Below the pieces are notes generated by a model. The model was not told the DNA's origin. It did not search any database and worked only from the letters and a program-made list of their open reading frames with translations. Source: Escherichia coli (GTDB lineage: Bacteria > Pseudomonadota > Gammaproteobacteria > Enterobacterales > Enterobacteriaceae). Taken from it: DNA of 64,000 nt. Below, piece by piece: positions 3,652 to 9,096 of this stretch. Where the stretch lies: NCBI RefSeq assembly GCF_045037415.1, contig NZ_CP173438.1, one strand, 5' to 3'. A program made the position numbers and the translations under genes. The number at the start of each line of letters is the position of its first letter. The stretch's first letter is position 1.

Positions 3652-3992
3652 CAGTTCACCACCTGCTCAATCGTACAACTGAAATCACTGTGCCTGGCGT
3701 TATCTGTGACGCTCCACTCCCGGCACACCACCCTCACCGTCAGGTTATGTTTCGGCGGTCGCCACAAAAAGGCACGGTAACCACCATGCCACGATAAAAA
3801 TTCATCCAGCCAGCGCCGGGTTGGTTCATCCGTCACCCGGAACACCGCCTGAAACGTCTTCAGTCTGGCATTAAGTCCCGTCGGTCGGCGCTGTTCATAA
3901 CCGTCACCAAACCGAACCCTCACCACCGACGGTTTCTCACTCACCTGCATCCCTTCACGCGGGACCAGATGCAGCGTTTTTATCTCAGCCAC
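3651..3992 (-). CDS. M: Minor tail protein M
   Basis: 113 aa; VRFGDGYEQRRPTGLNARLKT and C-terminal EQVVN resemble lambda M. Confidence 0.85.
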   Translation of the reverse strand: MAEIKTLHLVPREGMQVSEKPSVVRVRFGDGYEQRRPTGLNARLKTFQAVFRVTDEPTRRWLDEFLSWHGGYRAFLWRPPKHNLTVRVVCREWSVTDNARHSDFSCTIEQVVN

Positions 3993-6900
3993 TCAGCATT
4001 CCTCCGTCACGTCGCATGGACAGCATCACCGCCTGCACCCGCTGGTCAATCAGCTGCACAAGACTGCCTGCCGCCTCCGCCCCTATCTGTCCGTTAGCCC
4101 CGTCATTCTGAATGGCGATGTGGTAGACCGGGGAATACACCAGACCGGCACTGCCGTTCATACTGCCCACCGCGCGTACGCCCAGCGAGCCATCCGCCGC
4201 CCGGGTCAGGGGCATAATGGCTTCAGGTCCGGCTTCCCCCATCAGCCCGGCCCCTTTTGCAAACGCAAAGTACGTGGGCGTGTCCACAATGCTGTTGCTG
4301 TACGCACTCAGGTTTGCCGAGGTATACACGCCGCCTTTTGCATTGGCCACCGCACCGCCCAGCCAGTCACCAATGCTGCCAATAAATCCTCCCGCACCGG
4401 ACATACCGTTTGCCGCCGTCTTAATTCCGTTGACAATCGCAGCATTCATAAGAACTTTTGAGATTTCCTGCAGTACGGATGAGGCCCAGTTGCGCCATTC
4501 CACTTTGTTTCCGTTCAGCATCTCCGTGATGTTATTCACCATCCCTGAGATACCCTCCGTCGCAAGCTGTGCTGCCTGTGAGGCGTAATCGGATGCATTG
4601 TCCACCCAGTTACTGAGCCCCTCCTGCAAGCCTTTCTGCCAGTCCGCACGCTGCGCATCCGATTCGGCATAAAAGGCTGCCTGGTCCTTAAGGCGTTCGC
4701 TCAGATACTGCGCGTTCTGTGCCCGTGCCTGTCTGTAAAAATCCTCACTGATATCCCCGGTCTGATACTGAGACTGAAGGTCCGCATCCTTCTGGCGGAA
4801 GCTGTCACGGATCTGCTGCAACTCCCGCATGCGTTCCCTGGCTCGTTCTCCCTGCCCGTATCCCAGCAGTTCGGCTTCATTTGATGCACGCGCAGCCACA
4901 TTATCATTCTTCAGGGTCTCTTCCCGGGATCGCAACTGTTCCCGGATTTTTTGCTGGTCAATCAGGGCCGCGTTACGCAGCAGTTCCTGCTTCTGCATCT
5001 CCGTCAGGGTTTTCAGTTCGCCCTGCGCAGTCTGGTACTTCAGCTTCGCCAGCTCTGTATTCTGACCCGCCAGTGCCAGTTGCTCTTTCTGCTGCTTCAG
5101 TAGCCGGGAAAAACTGTCTTCCGCTTTTTCCGTCTCTGATTTTCCACCCCGGGATTTAGGTTTGTTCGCCTCGTTATTACGCCAGGCTTCCAGAGCATTA
5201 CTGATATAACGCTGTCTCGCCTCCTGATACGAATCCCCCACAAAACCAAGGTCATCCGCCGCATACCCCAGCCGGGCACGCTCTTTTTCCTCCCCCTTCA
5301 GTCGGGACAGGGCCAGCTCACGTTCTGTTTTTGTCAGGGCGCTCTGCTGTTTATCATCCAGGGTGGCCTGCGGCAGCCGTAACGGTACATTCACCAGTCC
5401 CTGACGCTGCTGAAGCAGTTCATTCCCCAGCCCCAGCAGACGGTTGAATTCCGTATGCTGACCGTTCATAACCAGCATGGACTGGTACACCTTATTCTGC
5501 TCTGCCGCCTGCTGACGAATTAACGCCACACGACGGTCTTCCAGCCCGGCAAGCACATCCTGAATGGACTGCGCTTTTTCCTGCATCTGTGCCAGACGGG
5601 ACTGCTCAACGGCAAGCTGCTCTGTTGCCTGAGAAAGCCCTTCCGTCACGGTCTTCACCGATGTCAGATGGTTTATCATGAATCCGTCACCGGTTGTCCA
5701 GCCAGGGTTAGCCAGAACATACTGATATCCAGCGATTTTTTCCTGCAGGGATTTCACCCGGCTGGCCTGTTCATCAATCAGCCGGTTCTGCTCTGCCAGC
5801 GCCGCCCGTGTTCGTCCTTCATTATCTGAGGCTTCAGGCAAAGACATTGACGGCGTTTTATGCGCGATTTCATCTATCGTCAGTGCATACTGGCGCGCTG
5901 ACTCCCTGGCCTGCTCCTGATTCTGGTACAGCGTATACCATGCTGCTGCCCCCAGCATCACCAGTCCGGGTACGCCACCAACCAGTCCCAACGCACCAGT
6001 CATCAGACGTGAGCCCACCGCCGTTGTACTGTTCAGCTCATTCTGGGCTGCGGTTCTGGCAGCAATATTTCTGTTCAGGCGTTCCTGTGTGGCCGCCAGA
6101 CGGGCTTCTGCAGCAATCTGCATCTCCGTCCCGCGGGCTGCCGCCACAGCCTGCTGTGCACGGTACACGGCTGCCCTTGCCCGCGCCGTGGCAATCTGCG
6201 TCCCCCTGAGCTGTGCTTCCGCCAGTGCCACTTCATTACGTGCTGCCGTCACAAGTCCTGCCGTGGCAGACACCGCTCCGGAGGCCATATTGCCAAAGTA
6301 CCGGGCAACCCCGACGGCAACCAGCGCCCCCGCGGCTGTTGCCACATTATCAATATTACCGGCAACACCGTTCAGCACGCCGGAGAGCGTTTTCGTCGCT
6401 CCGCTGGCTTCATTCGCGCCACCCACCCAGGCCATAAAGGCGTTTTCCACCTTTGTGATCCCGTCAGAGACCGTTTCCGGCATGGCGGCATATTCATCAC
6501 GCAATACCCCCAGCTGGCTGATTAACGCAGGAACGACTTTATCCGCCGTCAGTTTGCCGTCGTCCGCCATCGCCTTAAGGTCTTTACGGGCCACGCCCAT
6601 ACCCGCAGCCAGTGCACGTACGATCCGGTCTCCGCTTTCATTGACCGAATTAAATTCCTCACCGCGTAACACACCCTGTGCCAGCGCCTGGCTGAACTGG
6701 GTGATCACCGAGCCCGCCTCTGCCGTACTGGCACCGGAGATTTTCAGCCCCGTGGAAATGGCCTCCGTCACCTTCAGCACATCATCAGCACTGTAACCAT
6801 ATTCACGCATTGAGGCTGCCGAGCGGGCAAACAGGGCCGCATTATCTGAAAATGCCGTGCCCGTCCGCTGGCTGATATCCATCAGCACTTTCTGTGATGA

Positions 6901-7227
6901 CGAAAATTCATCGGATGACTGCGACGCCTGTTTCAGTCGGGCATTCACGGAACTCCATTCATCGGCCAGAGAAATCAGGTGTCCGGTGGCAAAGGCACCT
7001 GCAAATGCCCCCGCCGTTCCGGCAGCTGAAGCGCGGATTTCCGTCAACTGGCTGTTCAGCTCAGCCAGGGCGCGTCGCTGCACCCGGGCGACTGCGGCAG
7101 CCTGACGCCCGCCATTCTGCAGGGTCCGGTAATATTCACTGCCCATGCGGGAAGCCCGCTGGATCTCCGACTGGAATGACTGCGAATTTGCCGAAATTTT
7201 GATAATCAGTTCACGTAACGTCGCCAT
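3985..7227 (-). CDS. H: Tail tape measure protein
   Basis: 1080 aa, Ala/Gln-rich coiled-coil-like sequence with Gly-rich hydrophobic segments, positioned between GT and M. Confidence 0.9.
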   Translation of the reverse strand: MATLRELIIKISANSQSFQSEIQRASRMGSEYYRTLQNGGRQAAAVARVQRRALAELNSQLTEIRASAAGTAGAFAGAFATGHLISLADEWSSVNARLKQASQSSDEFSSSQKVLMDISQRTGTAFSDNAALFARSAASMREYGYSADDVLKVTEAISTGLKISGASTAEAGSVITQFSQALAQGVLRGEEFNSVNESGDRIVRALAAGMGVARKDLKAMADDGKLTADKVVPALISQLGVLRDEYAAMPETVSDGITKVENAFMAWVGGANEASGATKTLSGVLNGVAGNIDNVATAAGALVAVGVARYFGNMASGAVSATAGLVTAARNEVALAEAQLRGTQIATARARAAVYRAQQAVAAARGTEMQIAAEARLAATQERLNRNIAARTAAQNELNSTTAVGSRLMTGALGLVGGVPGLVMLGAAAWYTLYQNQEQARESARQYALTIDEIAHKTPSMSLPEASDNEGRTRAALAEQNRLIDEQASRVKSLQEKIAGYQYVLANPGWTTGDGFMINHLTSVKTVTEGLSQATEQLAVEQSRLAQMQEKAQSIQDVLAGLEDRRVALIRQQAAEQNKVYQSMLVMNGQHTEFNRLLGLGNELLQQRQGLVNVPLRLPQATLDDKQQSALTKTERELALSRLKGEEKERARLGYAADDLGFVGDSYQEARQRYISNALEAWRNNEANKPKSRGGKSETEKAEDSFSRLLKQQKEQLALAGQNTELAKLKYQTAQGELKTLTEMQKQELLRNAALIDQQKIREQLRSREETLKNDNVAARASNEAELLGYGQGERARERMRELQQIRDSFRQKDADLQSQYQTGDISEDFYRQARAQNAQYLSERLKDQAAFYAESDAQRADWQKGLQEGLSNWVDNASDYASQAAQLATEGISGMVNNITEMLNGNKVEWRNWASSVLQEISKVLMNAAIVNGIKTAANGMSGAGGFIGSIGDWLGGAVANAKGGVYTSANLSAYSNSIVDTPTYFAFAKGAGLMGEAGPEAIMPLTRAADGSLGVRAVGSMNGSAGLVYSPVYHIAIQNDGANGQIGAEAAGSLVQLIDQRVQAVMLSMRRDGGMLSG

Positions 7228-7274
7228 TCACCTTTCTCCGGGCGTAAAAAAACCGCCTCAGCGGTTCTCATCAT

Positions 7275-7583
7275 TCATGACTGTGCTGCGAAGCTCAGCG
7301 CGTCTTCCAGCGCCGCAAACGGATCCACCTCCGGCTTATCCTCATCCTCGCCCCAGCAGAGCATGGCGTCCTTCAGTGCAACATTCATCCCCTGTGCCCC
7401 AAAAACCGCTTTCACGATCTGTGCATTACGGATATCCCCGCGCTCATCACCCAGCGGGGATACCCTGTCGAACTCCATCCACATCATCGCCTCGCTCACA
7501 CTCAGGCTGTGCCGCAGTTCGGATAAGGTGCGCCCCAGACGGAGCGCAAGTCGCATCAGAAAGCGAATTTCCGGGCGGGCTAC
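7275..7583 (-). CDS. T: T portion of the G-T tail assembly chaperone, reached by -1 frameshift from G
   Basis: The -1 frame after the slippery site reads KKVARPEIRFLMRLALRLGRT..., continuous with the ORF 7275-7556. Confidence 0.7.
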   Translation of the reverse strand, partial: VARPEIRFLMRLALRLGRTLSELRHSLSVSEAMMWMEFDRVSPLGDERGDIRNAQIVKAVFGAQGMNVALKDAMLCWGEDEDKPEVDPFAALEDALSFAAQS

Positions 7584-7954
7584 TTTTTTCTGGCCGACTC
7601 TGCATCAGCGATCAGTTCCAGTGCCTGACGCAGCAACCGGGCATGTACCGGACCATAGACGGCCAGCACCTGCTCACGGTCGTCCGGAGCGAACACCCGC
7701 TGCAGATCCGTATCACACAGGACATCGCAGAACAGCGTCACATCCGCTTCTAGGTTACGGCGGGTTTTCGCCACCACCGACAGGGTATCGTCATCCTCTC
7801 CATCACCATTGAGCACTTCCTGCCACAGATACCAGGCCTCTGCCGAAGGCTCCCGCAGCACCACGCTGACATTACCCCATTCCGGCACCTTCACCGTTTT
7901 ATGACGAAACCCTGACAGTCTGGCCAGCGCCAGCGTTTTCAGATCCTTTTTCAT
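7580..7954 (-). CDS. G: Tail assembly chaperone G
   Basis: Start at internal MKKDLKTL just after the V stop; ends ...ADAESARKK immediately after the slippery heptamer. Confidence 0.8.
   Translation of the reverse strand: MKKDLKTLALARLSGFRHKTVKVPEWGNVSVVLREPSAEAWYLWQEVLNGDGEDDDTLSVVAKTRRNLEADVTLFCDVLCDTDLQRVFAPDDREQVLAVYGPVHARLLRQALELIADAESARKK
7583..7589 (-). other. Programmed -1 ribosomal frameshift slippery heptamer A-AAA-AAG at the end of G
   Basis: Minus strand reads GCC AGA AAA AAG TAG; AAAAAAG precedes the G stop and the -1 frame continues into T. Confidence 0.65.
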
Positions 7955-7968
7955 GATGACCCATCCCC

Positions 7969-8685
7969 TTATCCGGCGGCTGCGCTCACTGTCACGGTGC
8001 ATTCAACAGACGTCACACTCTGTGCTTTCTCTGCCGAATCGGTCACCACGCAGGTATATTTCCCCGCATCAGCGGACTGCGCACCTGGCTTACTGAAGGT
8101 GTCTGTCGTCTGCCCGTCAACCGGCTGACCATCCTTCTTCCAGGCGTATTTATACGGCGGCGTTCCCCCGTTGGCACTGACTGACATTGTCAGCAGCGCA
8201 CCTGTATTCACGGTAAGTGTTTTATCCAGATTTTTCACAAACGCCAGCGGTACCACAAAGGACACCGGTTTGCCTTTCATACGCAGTGAAAACGTTGCTG
8301 CCACCACGCCGTTGGTACCGGATGACCAGGTGTGCTGACGCACTTCCGCCAGGAACTTAAAGCCCTTACCGGACGGAAACAGCACCTTAAACGCATACAA
8401 CGCGTCATTGTCATAGGCATCACGCAGGGCGTTCTGGGCCTGATTCAGATAAAAATTACCCGACATGGAAATCTCAGACGACGCCCCCAGACCGTTGATG
8501 TTCTCCTGCTCGGTGGAGCAGAGCGTGGTCACATCAATATCCTGTTTCTGACCAGCGGTGAACTGGACTTCCTTGATGGTGCAGTCCAGGCGCAGATATT
8601 CCGCCTTATCCATAGTTTCAGCAGTCGCCGGGGCAGATGAAATCATCACCTGCGTCAGCTGTGAGCGTTCATACAAAGCAGACAT
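7969..8685 (-). CDS. V: Major tail protein with C-terminal Ig-like domain
   Basis: 238 aa, strong SD AGGAGG, C-terminal Ig-like segment (TPPYKYAWKKDGQPV), positioned upstream of G. Confidence 0.8.
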   Translation of the reverse strand: MSALYERSQLTQVMISSAPATAETMDKAEYLRLDCTIKEVQFTAGQKQDIDVTTLCSTEQENINGLGASSEISMSGNFYLNQAQNALRDAYDNDALYAFKVLFPSGKGFKFLAEVRQHTWSSGTNGVVAATFSLRMKGKPVSFVVPLAFVKNLDKTLTVNTGALLTMSVSANGGTPPYKYAWKKDGQPVDGQTTDTFSKPGAQSADAGKYTCVVTDSAEKAQSVTSVECTVTVSAAAG

Positions 8686-8701: not shown

Positions 8702-8723
8702 AAAAAACCCGCACGCGGCGGGG
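8702..8723 (-). terminator. Intrinsic terminator-like hairpin upstream of V
   Basis: Minus strand CCCGC-cgcgt-GCGGG followed by TTTTTT. Confidence 0.4.
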
Positions 8724-8751
8724 TATGGGTTTTGTAGAAAAAAAGAAAAAG

Positions 8752-9096
8752 TCACACCGTGACCTGAAACTCCAGGGTTGCACGGTAACAGCGGTTTTCC
8801 GGAATATAGTCCTGCATTTCACTGACGGATCCCGGGGCCAGCAGCATTATGGCTTCACGGGCGTCCTGACGTATCTGACGCGCCTGCGTCACAGTCCCGG
8901 CATAAACGTCTATCTGCACCGACACTGAGGACTCCGCCTGCCCGCCCATCACGTCCGCAGACACCGATGAAATCAGGCTGAAAACCACCCACGGAAGCGC
9001 CACCGACGGCCTGCCATCCAGCAGGGGGACCACATACGGGTACACCTGCCCGCCGGCAAGATGCGCCAGATGAGGATACAAATCCGCCTCCGTCAT
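8752..9096 (-). CDS. Tail terminator-like protein (lambda U position)
   Basis: 114 aa between the gp10-like gene and the major tail gene. Confidence 0.5.
   Translation of the reverse strand: MTEADLYPHLAHLAGGQVYPYVVPLLDGRPSVALPWVVFSLISSVSADVMGGQAESSVSVQIDVYAGTVTQARQIRQDAREAIMLLAPGSVSEMQDYIPENRCYRATLEFQVTV

What the first reader, a model, noticed from the sequence alone, without database searches (positions are those of the whole stretch)
7580..7595. G-T programmed -1 frameshift site with an A-AAA-AAG heptamer directly before the G stop
The classic slippery heptamer lies at the 3' end of G, and the -1 frame continues for ~100 codons (T). This is the conserved tail assembly chaperone mechanism and supports the tail module being functional.
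Basis: partly seen in the sequence, partly recalled or inferred. Interest (0 to 1): 0.2.

Follow-up and report, generated by a model that had tools for sequence, protein, structure and literature searches.

The report
Known phage tail-chaperone G/GT frameshift site
This is the ordinary, already published programmed -1 ribosomal frameshift that lets an E. coli prophage make two tail-assembly chaperones (G and the longer GT) from one message, and this exact sequence has been measured at about 7% frameshifting in E. coli.

Summary
A tail assembly chaperone ORF (G, 7954..7580, Pfam Phage_TAC_1) ends AGA AAA AAG TAG. The heptamer A_AAA_AAG (7589..7583) is in the phase needed for slippage, and the stop follows directly. 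The -1 frame then runs 102 codons to TGA (7277..7275) and encodes a Phage_tail_T domain. The pair lies between the major tail gene and the tape measure gene. In 13 relatives (99% to 34% identity) an in-phase lysine slip core (A_AAG, or A_AAA in KS9) sits in the same alignment column. My junction rule reproduces the curated frameshift products of HK97, HK544 and KS9 exactly. T's internal ATG has no Shine-Dalgarno. The finding is not new. Sharma et al. 2014 list this E. coli prophage cluster (A_AAA_AAG_25, ECs1801) as an inferred -1 frameshift. Antonov et al. 2013 tested a 75-nt cassette identical to window 7535-7609 and measured 7% +/- 0.79 frameshifting. No significant stimulatory RNA structure or upstream SD was found. 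Verdict: real, interpretation supported, already known, low interest. The main practical point is that most database records, including RefSeq, annotate T as a separate 93-aa gene.

The parts
7580..7954 (-). G: tail assembly chaperone ORF, 124 aa, 0 frame, ATG 7954..7952 to stop TAG 7582..7580
   Evidence: Translation. Pfam PF06222 Phage_TAC_1, E 1.7e-61, full length. Shine-Dalgarno duplex -8.4 kcal/mol before ATG 7954, against -3.3 for the alternative ATG at 8002. Annotated with the same start in RefSeq and phage records.
7583..7589 (-). Slippery heptamer A_AAA_AAG, in phase (0-frame codons AAA AAG)
   Evidence: Invariant in 80 close loci. Same alignment column as the curated slip sites of relatives.
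7580..7582 (-). 0-frame stop codon TAG of G, immediately 3' of the heptamer
   Evidence: Adjacency is not conserved in relatives, where the stop lies 0, 1, 5 or 10 codons after the slip codon.
7275..7583 (-). T extension read in the -1 frame: 102 codons (VARPEIRFLMRLALRLGR...) plus stop TGA 7277..7275
   Evidence: Pfam PF06223 Phage_tail_T, E 1.5e-18. phrog_337 and the fusion profile phrog_14766.
7275..7954 (-). Predicted GT fusion product, 226 aa (G residues 1-124 + 102 residues of T), made by the minority of ribosomes that shift
   Evidence: The same 226-aa sequence is encoded as one ORF in two assemblies that carry a 7-A run.
7583..7604 (-). Overlap window (22 nt): the only stretch where both the 0 frame and the -1 frame are open, so the shift must occur here
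   Evidence: -1 frame closed upstream by TGA.
7554..7556 (-). Internal ATG used by databases as the start of a stand-alone 93-aa 'T' gene. It has no Shine-Dalgarno and is probably not an initiation site
   Evidence: Anti-SD duplex -3.5 kcal/mol; 59% of internal ATG triplets in the V-to-H region are as good or better. Annotation as a separate CDS. The Met is absent in KS9.
7535..7609 (-). Stretch identical to the 75-nt cassette tested by Antonov et al. 2013 (7% +/- 0.79 -1 frameshifting)
   Evidence: Exact match, 0 mismatches. Supplementary Table S2 of PMC3711429.
7448..7577 (-). 130-nt predicted hairpin, 5 nt after the heptamer, as listed by Sharma et al. Not distinguishable from shuffled sequence, so probably not a stimulator
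   Evidence: MFE -52.2, z = -1.35, 19 of 200 shuffles fold as well. Sharma Table S8 gives ddG per nt of 0.020, below their 0.09 threshold. Its 3' arm lies outside the insert that gave 7%.
7969..8685 (-). Context: major tail tube protein with C-terminal Ig-like domain, immediately upstream of G
   Evidence: Pfam Ig_3, Phage_TTP_11 and Phage_tail_2. Annotated as major tail subunit.
3985..7227 (-). Context: tape measure protein (1080 aa), immediately downstream of T
   Evidence: Pfam Phage_HK97_TLTM, TMP_3 and Tape_meas_lam_C.

Best explanation
This is the programmed -1 ribosomal frameshift of the tail assembly chaperone pair G/GT of an HK97-like tail module in a lambdoid E. coli prophage. Most ribosomes translate G (124 aa) and terminate at TAG 7582..7580. 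A minority, about 7% in a published reporter carrying this exact sequence, slip back one base. With codon AAA in the P site and AAG in the A site, the lysine tRNAs re-pair on AAA AAA. The next codon read is GUA, and translation continues in the -1 frame for 102 codons to give the 226-aa GT fusion. By analogy with lambda, G and the G part of GT coat the tape measure protein, while the T domain recruits the major tail protein, so a fixed G:GT ratio is supplied from one mRNA. Shown here: anatomy, phase, protein families, conservation of the slip column, and identity to the experimentally tested cassette. Shown in the literature: 7% frameshift product from this sequence. Inferred: the tandem-slippage route (rather than single-tRNA slippage), and the roles of G and GT in assembly of this particular tail.
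For: Phase and open frames. G is PF06222 and the -1 extension is PF06223; phrog_14766 covers both halves as one protein. Position between the major tail and tape measure genes. HK97 gp13/gp14, HK544 and KS9 relatives are curated as -1 frameshifts. An in-phase A_AAG or A_AAA lies inside the overlap window in 9 of 9 lineages, with a chance product of about 1e-8. The slip lysine falls in the same alignment column in 13 sequences from 99% to 34% identity, G and T diverge at matching rates, and the -1-frame linker upstream of T's Met has an invariant Pro. Fusions predicted by this rule equal the deposited HK97/HK544 (NP_037707.1, AFH20577.1) and KS9 (AAZ14872.2) products residue for residue. T's ATG has no SD. 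Sharma et al. 2014 list cluster A_AAA_AAG_25 (ECs1801) as a safely inferred -1 PRF, and ECs_1801 has an identical junction. Antonov et al. 2013 measured 7% +/- 0.79 with a cassette identical to 7535-7609. A_AAA_AAG is among the three most shift-prone heptamers in E. coli.
Against: No GT protein from this prophage has been observed directly; the evidence is a reporter plus comparative inference. The bare heptamer gives only 0.29% without stimulators, and I found no significant downstream structure, no upstream SD (Sharma Table S4 also reports none) and no Rfam frameshift element. The roughly 24-fold higher native efficiency is therefore unexplained, and part of it may reflect differences between the two assay systems. 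The reporter cannot separate ribosomal from transcriptional slippage. Most database records, including RefSeq, annotate T as an independent gene.
Confidence: 0.95

Rival explanations
1. Same GT product, different route: single-tRNA slippage. The peptidyl-tRNA-Lys on AAG in the P site slips to AAA while the slowly decoded UAG stop waits in the A site (a 'shifty stop' A_AAG event), instead of tandem P- and A-site slippage on the full heptamer.
For: Only the tetramer A_AAG (A_AAA in KS9) is conserved across the family. The preceding codon varies (AAA, GGA, GAA in HK97, GCA in a Klebsiella phage), and in the last two tandem re-pairing is poor. In the Klebsiella phage the overlap window is 7 nt and the stop directly follows AAG. 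A_AAG alone is a recognised -1 shift unit in E. coli, used at G_CGA_AAG by IS1222 (PMC5009743).
Against: In this window the full canonical heptamer is present and invariant. The tested relative whose stop lies one codon further on (G_GGA_AAG_CCG_TAA) shifts about as well, 6% against 7%, so an adjacent stop is not needed. Stop adjacency is not conserved. Both routes give the same protein, so sequence alone cannot decide.
Confidence: 0.2
2. Transcriptional slippage: RNA polymerase adds one A in the A6 run, giving an mRNA that encodes GT in a single frame.
For: An extra A yields exactly the predicted GT, and two assemblies with a 7-A run encode the identical 226-aa protein. The published reporter cannot tell this apart from ribosomal slippage.
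Against: The run is only 6 A long, and the runs cited for transcriptional realignment are longer than 7 A (PMC3711429). Relatives with G_GGA_AAG or A_GCA_AAG have only 3 consecutive A, keep the same architecture, and one was measured at 6%.
Confidence: 0.04
3. T is an independent 93-aa protein initiated at ATG 7556, as annotated in RefSeq and most phage records, and the heptamer is incidental.
For: Annotated that way in RefSeq (PGAP) genomes and most phage records. The Met of the FLM motif is conserved in most relatives.
Against: There is no Shine-Dalgarno; the ATG is no better than the median internal ATG triplet. KS9 has no Met there. The -1-frame linker upstream of the Met is conserved as protein, with an invariant Pro. 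PHROG profiles align residues upstream of the Met. The frameshift product was measured from this sequence. In lambda, the review describes gpG and the frameshift-derived gpGT as the two products of this region (PMC5009743); that no free T is made is my own knowledge of Levin et al. 1993.
Confidence: 0.03

Closest known systems
E. coli prophage tail assembly chaperone cluster A_AAA_AAG_25 (representative ECs1801, O157:H7 Sakai prophage Sp9; Sharma et al. 2014), equal to GeneTack cluster Phage_TAC [862991913] (Antonov et al. 2013)
   Same: It is the same gene. G+T is 96.5% identical, the junction is identical, and the tested 75-nt cassette is identical to window 7535-7609. The gene order is the same.
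   Different: Nothing of substance. There are a few amino acid substitutions away from the junction.
Phage HK97 gp13/gp14 (and HK544, HK446, and others), curated -1 frameshift
   Same: Same Pfam pair PF06222 + PF06223. G is 63% and T 58% identical. The slip lysine is in the same alignment column, between the major tail and tape measure genes.
   Different: HK97 reads CGG GAA AAG (G_GAA_AAG), which is not a canonical heptamer. Its stop lies 5 codons after the slip site. It carries a moron (gp15) between T and H.
Phage lambda G/GT (G_GGA_AAG; Levin et al. 1993; Xu et al. 2004, 2013, 2014)
   Same: Same logic and position. The T halves share Pfam PF06223. A low-level -1 shift near the 3' end of G produces a chaperone pair absent from virions, with a G:GT ratio of about 30:1 in lambda (PMC5009743).
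   Different: Lambda G belongs to another Pfam family (PF06894). BLASTP finds no pairwise similarity in either half. The heptamer differs, the lambda stop is 5 codons downstream, and lambda T is longer (144 aa against 102).
E. coli dnaX gamma/tau frameshift (A_AAA_AAG)
   Same: Identical heptamer, and the same tRNA-Lys (mnm5s2U34) slippage chemistry (PMC5009743).
   Different: dnaX has an upstream SD-like stimulator and a downstream hairpin and shifts about 50% (PMC3711429). Here neither stimulator is detectable and the measured level is 7%. In dnaX the shifted product is shorter; here it is longer.

Membership tests
G/GT-type tail assembly chaperone programmed -1 frameshift of long-tailed phages (Xu, Hendrix & Duda 2004) | Two overlapping ORFs located between the major tail protein gene and the tape measure gene | tested here: met
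   Tail tube 8685..7969, G 7954..7580, T to 7275, tape measure 7227..3985, all on the minus strand.
G/GT-type tail assembly chaperone programmed -1 frameshift of long-tailed phages (Xu, Hendrix & Duda 2004) | The second ORF is in the -1 frame relative to the first and overlaps its 3' end | tested here: met
   -1 frame open from 7604, G stop at 7582..7580, 22-nt overlap.
G/GT-type tail assembly chaperone programmed -1 frameshift of long-tailed phages (Xu, Hendrix & Duda 2004) | A slippery sequence in the correct phase inside the overlap | tested here: met
   A_AAA_AAG at 7589..7583 with 0-frame codons AAA AAG. It is the only one of 28 copies in the window with this context.
G/GT-type tail assembly chaperone programmed -1 frameshift of long-tailed phages (Xu, Hendrix & Duda 2004) | The second ORF lacks its own translation initiation signal | tested here: met
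   Anti-SD duplex -3.5 kcal/mol at ATG 7556, against -8.4 (G), -10.3 (V) and -6.6 (H). Linker residues upstream of the Met are conserved.
G/GT-type tail assembly chaperone programmed -1 frameshift of long-tailed phages (Xu, Hendrix & Duda 2004) | Architecture and slip site conserved in diverged relatives | tested here: met
   13 sequences in 9 lineages down to 34% identity. Slip lysine in the same column. Chance about 1e-8. Predicted fusions equal the curated products.
G/GT-type tail assembly chaperone programmed -1 frameshift of long-tailed phages (Xu, Hendrix & Duda 2004) | A frameshifted fusion product is actually made at a low, fixed percentage | not testable with these tools
   Literature only: an identical 75-nt cassette gave 7% +/- 0.79 in an E. 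coli GST-MBP reporter (PMC3711429 Table S2). Identity of the cassette to the window was tested here.
G/GT-type tail assembly chaperone programmed -1 frameshift of long-tailed phages (Xu, Hendrix & Duda 2004) | Both G and GT are required for tail assembly and absent from virions | not testable with these tools
   Known for lambda (PMC5009743). Not examined for this prophage.
Pfam PF06222 Phage_TAC_1 (HK97 gp13-type chaperone) | Score above the gathering threshold over the full model | tested here: met
   206 bits against a cutoff of 25, model positions 1-124 of 124. HK97 GT scores 201 bits.
Pfam PF06223 Phage_tail_T | Score above the gathering threshold | tested here: met
   67.4 bits against a cutoff of 25.9. 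Lambda T scores 54.1 bits on the same model.
Pfam PF06894 Phage_TAC_2 (lambda gpG family) | A match of G to the lambda gpG model | tested here: not met
   No hit at E <= 0.01 for the window's G, whereas lambda G scores 206.9 bits. BLASTP gives no significant hit.
dnaX / IS3-type stimulated -1 frameshift signal | Upstream SD-like element and/or a stable downstream hairpin or pseudoknot 5-9 nt after the heptamer | tested here: not met
   Upstream anti-SD duplex only -3.0 kcal/mol. Downstream folds z = +0.43 and -1.35. The only compact hairpin lies 35 nt downstream. Sharma Tables S4 and S8 report no SD and a hairpin not above average.
Rfam RF01394 isrK (side observation, T-H spacer) | Score at or above the gathering threshold (50 bits) | tested here: not met
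   27.3 bits. The match is driven by a terminator-like 3' hairpin.

The most novel reading that the evidence does not exclude
The native 138-nt context raises frameshifting from the 0.29% of the bare heptamer to 7% without any detectable SD, hairpin or pseudoknot. Across the family only the tetramer A_AAG is conserved, while the preceding codon and the distance to the stop vary. It is not excluded that this chaperone family relies on an unrecognised local stimulator, such as the adjacent stop context, the nascent peptide, or the rare AGA codon just upstream (which the prophage's own tRNA-Arg(UCU) reads). Part or all of the gap may instead come from differences between the two reporter systems.
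Probability: 0.25. Interest if true: 0.3.

Novelty: already known. Interest (0 to 1): 0.08.

Why it matters
For biology it matters little. This is a textbook recoding event in a very common E. coli prophage tail module: the locus is present in 1245 of 5426 complete E. coli genomes. The exact sequence has already been measured. Its practical value is for annotation. RefSeq (PGAP) and most phage records call T as a stand-alone 93-aa gene from an internal ATG instead of a 226-aa GT product made by ribosomal slippage. The site also gives a clean natural example of A_AAA_AAG working at a moderate level without the stimulators seen in dnaX and IS elements.

Tried and rejected
1. The viral-contig scan with G returned only 98-100% identical loci. 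That was useful for showing invariance but not for conservation, so I switched to tblastn against annotated phages.
2. My first heptamer filter was too loose and reported CCCGGCG in HK97-type phages as a slippery site. I rejected this on inspection and replaced it with frame-by-frame reading and the A_AAG criterion.
3. Downstream stimulatory structure: the 121-nt and 130-nt folds are not better than shuffles. The one compact hairpin (7547..7530) lies 35 nt from the heptamer, too far for a classical stimulator.
4. Upstream SD stimulator: none.
5. Rfam: no frameshift element, only a sub-threshold isrK hit in the T-H spacer.
6. Antisense (+ strand) ORFs 7145-7753 and 7363-7812, and the +1-frame ORF 7447-7605 (-): no Pfam support, so I treated them as spurious.
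7. Direct BLASTP to lambda G and T gave no hits. The relationship of the T halves shows only at profile level.
8. The primary paper Xu et al. 2004 is not in the held library. Statements about it rest on the review PMC5009743 and on my own knowledge.
9. The consensus terminator scan did not flag the T-H spacer hairpin, although folding shows it.

Full report
**What is at the coordinates.**

The feature lies on the minus strand. [quoted passage not shown]
- The ORF it closes runs from ATG 7954 to TAG 7582..7580 and is 124 aa long.
- That ATG has a Shine-Dalgarno (-8.4 kcal/mol). The alternative ATG at 8002 does not (-3.3), and it overlaps the upstream gene.
- The heptamer A_AAA_AAG occupies 7589..7583 in the canonical X_XXY_YYZ phase.
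- After a -1 slip the next codon is GTA (7583..7581). The -1 frame is then open for 102 codons (VARPEIRFLMRLALRLGRTLSELRH...) to TGA at 7277..7275.
- Upstream, the -1 frame is closed by a TGA 22 nt before the G stop, so any shift must occur in 7604..7583.

**Is it more than chance?**
- AAAAAAG occurs 28 times in the window on both strands. Only this copy has a long upstream 0-frame ORF, a 0-frame stop within two codons and a -1 frame open for 100 or more codons.
- In E. coli genes this heptamer is strongly under-represented in this phase (z = -10.1; Sharma et al. 2014 Table S3).
- In 80 close relatives from viral contigs, a 100-nt stretch around the junction varies at three positions, none of them in the heptamer or the stop.

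**What the two frames encode.**
- The 0-frame product matches Pfam PF06222 Phage_TAC_1 over the whole model (206 bits).
- The -1 extension matches PF06223 Phage_tail_T (67 bits).
- PHROG phrog_14766 is a 224-position profile that aligns G to positions 2-122 and T to positions 125-224, so it is a family of fused GT proteins.
- Upstream lies the major tail tube gene with an Ig-like domain (8685..7969). Downstream lies a 1080-aa tape measure gene (7227..3985) with HK97-type and lambda-type tape measure domains.
- The + strand ORFs over this region have no family support.

**Where it comes from.**
- The locus is near-identical to the tail module of long-tailed Stx-converting and related lambdoid phages of E. 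coli, such as 2851, YYZ-2008 and BP-4795.
- It occurs in 1245 of 5426 complete E. coli genomes.
- Window 1-28050 is 99.993% identical to, and collinear with, a prophage of strain 4/1-1. In that prophage V, G, T, H and the downstream tail genes are annotated intact.
- These records annotate G and T as two separate CDSs, with T starting at the internal ATG 7556.

**Comparative test.**

A tblastn of G against annotated phages gave a divergence ladder from 68% down to 33% identity, from E. coli out to Burkholderia. I fetched 13 loci, including HK97 itself.
- HK97 gp13/gp14 ("translated due to a -1 frameshift"), HK544 ("programmed frameshift") and KS9 gp11/gp12 carry curated two-piece CDSs.
- Every relative that could be read through the junction has G in frame 0 and a T ORF of about 100 codons in frame -1.
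- The heptamer itself is not conserved:
  - A_AAA_AAG: window, 2851, phi467, and the Burkholderia phages phi644-2 and PhiBP82.1.
  - A_AAA_AAA: KS9.
  - G_GGA_AAG: SW-37, mEp390, ECP1.
  - G_GAA_AAG: HK97, HK544, LAU1, ENT39118.
  - A_GCA_AAG: a Klebsiella phage.
- What is conserved is an in-phase lysine codon preceded by A. It lies inside the overlap window in 9 of 9 lineages. The background rate of such codons elsewhere in G is 1.4% per codon, which gives a joint chance of about 1e-8.
- In an alignment of the predicted fusions, the slip lysine falls in column 152/153 in all 13 sequences.
- G and T diverge at matching rates, for example 63%/58% for HK97 and 35%/40% for KS9.
- The linker between the slip site and T's internal Met is conserved as protein in the -1 frame (V-x-x-P-G-x-x-F-L-M, with the Pro invariant).
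- As an independent check, the fusions predicted by this rule for HK97/HK544 and KS9 equal the deposited NP_037707.1/AFH20577.1 and AAZ14872.2 residue for residue.

**Rival: independent initiation of T.**
- ATG 7556 has no Shine-Dalgarno (-3.5 kcal/mol). Of the internal ATG triplets in the V-to-H region, 59% are as good or better. V, G and H score -10.3, -8.4 and -6.6.
- KS9 has no Met at that position.
- Residues upstream of the Met are conserved and are covered by PHROG profiles.

**Rival: transcriptional slippage.**
- An extra A would give the same protein. Two assemblies with a 7-A run do encode the identical 226-aa protein as one ORF (TVS74273.1).
- However, the run here is only 6 A long. 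Relatives with three consecutive A keep the architecture, and one of them was measured at 6%.

**Stimulators.**
- No significant downstream structure was found: z = +0.43 for 121 nt and z = -1.35 for the 130-nt hairpin that Sharma et al. list.
- There is no upstream SD and no Rfam frameshift element.
- The stop is adjacent to the slip codon here, but it lies 1, 5 or 10 codons away in relatives. The tested relative with the stop one codon away shifts equally well.

**What is already known.**
- The review by Atkins et al. 2016 describes the lambda G/GT frameshift, its 30:1 product ratio, the roles of G, GT and T, and its wide conservation in long-tailed phages (PMC5009743). It also describes A_AAG as the minimal shift unit and A_AAA_AAG as highly shift-prone in E. 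coli.
- Sharma et al. 2014 name A_AA.A_AA.G among the three most efficient heptamers in E. coli. They measured 0.29% without stimulators, 4.3% with IS911 stimulators and 39% with the IS3 pseudoknot.
- They list a 53-gene prophage cluster A_AAA_AAG_25, "ECs1801, tail assembly chaperone; [true]", as a case that "can be safely inferred", and cross-reference it to GeneTack cluster #10.
- ECs_1801 in Sakai prophage Sp9 has the same gene order. It is 96.5% identical over G+T, and its junction is identical.
- Antonov et al. 2013 cloned two members of their HK97-like "Phage_TAC" cluster between GST and MBP and measured 7% +/- 0.79 and 6% +/- 0.61 frameshifting.

**Relation to lambda.**
- Lambda G is PF06894 and the window's G is PF06222. 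Both T halves are PF06223. BLASTP finds no pairwise similarity.
- The system works like lambda G/GT. It is a member of the HK97 gp13/gp14 lineage, not of the lambda G family.

**Mechanism, with status.**
- Shown here: the anatomy, phase, protein families, conservation of the slip column, absence of an initiation signal for T, and identity to the tested cassette.
- Shown in the literature: about 7% -1 product from this sequence in E. coli.
- Inferred: tandem slippage of the lysine tRNAs from AAA-AAG to AAA-AAA. Single-tRNA slippage at A_AAG with UAG in the A site is a possible contributor.
- Also inferred: G and GT act on the tape measure and major tail proteins as they do in lambda.
- Unexplained: the native context is about 24 times more efficient than the bare heptamer in a different reporter system.

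**Verdict.** It has low interest apart from the annotation point.

Noticed in passing
window 7246-7313 (-), hairpin 7269..7248 followed by U-run to 7246: The 47-nt spacer between the T stop and the tape measure start holds a terminator-like hairpin (AACCGC-TGAG-GCGGTT followed by a U-run). It drives a sub-threshold Rfam isrK match (27.3 bits against a gathering score of 50). A hairpin plus U-run recurs at the same place with different stems or loops in phi467 and mEp390/ECP1, and HK97 has an annotated putative terminator just before H. The consensus terminator scan did not flag it.
   Followed up: partly
L095 and L096 (GCA_007714145.1 contig VMRH01000005.1; Logan ERR13868052), position 655-682: Two assemblies carry a 7-A run instead of 6 at the slip site, so G and T are fused into one 226-aa ORF (TVS74273.1) identical to the predicted GT. 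This is either a homopolymer sequencing error or a natural mutant that would make only GT and no free G.
   Followed up: partly
window 7275-7556 (-) and the same locus in RefSeq genomes and phage records: The RefSeq (PGAP) records I opened and most phage records annotate T as a stand-alone 93-aa 'phage tail assembly protein T' from an internal ATG without a Shine-Dalgarno. Only the HK97-group and KS9 records annotate the slippage. The locus is present in 1245 of 5426 complete E. coli genomes.
   Followed up: yes
L094 (HK97) 1808-1859; L083, L085, L087, L088: HK97-type relatives shift at G_GAA_AAG and a Klebsiella phage at A_GCA_AAG. Neither is a canonical X_XXY_YYZ heptamer; only the tetramer A_AAG is shared across the family.
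   Followed up: partly
window 10219-12804 (-), repeats at 10685-11217: The 861-aa 'portal' ORF has the Phage_portal domain only in residues 54-382. It is followed by a long C-terminal extension containing a 162-nt (54-aa) tandem repeat, 3.3 copies at 95% match.
   Followed up: partly
window 13016-14953 (-): A single 645-aa ORF combines a prohead serine protease domain (Peptidase_S78, residues 48-152) with a major capsid domain (Phage_capsid, residues 386-635). Different records name it either 'prohead protease' or 'major capsid protein'.
   Followed up: partly
window 24637-24713 (-) and 24814-24889 (-): The prophage carries tRNA-Arg(UCU) and a tRNA with anticodon CAU, which is annotated tRNA-Ile in the identical genome. 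The rare AGA codon read by the first tRNA is the codon that supplies the first A of the slippery heptamer. No link was tested.
   Followed up: no
window 8708-8722 (-) and 8749-8765 (-): Two terminator-like hairpins lie just upstream of the major tail gene. HK97 has an annotated putative terminator in the same position.
   Followed up: no
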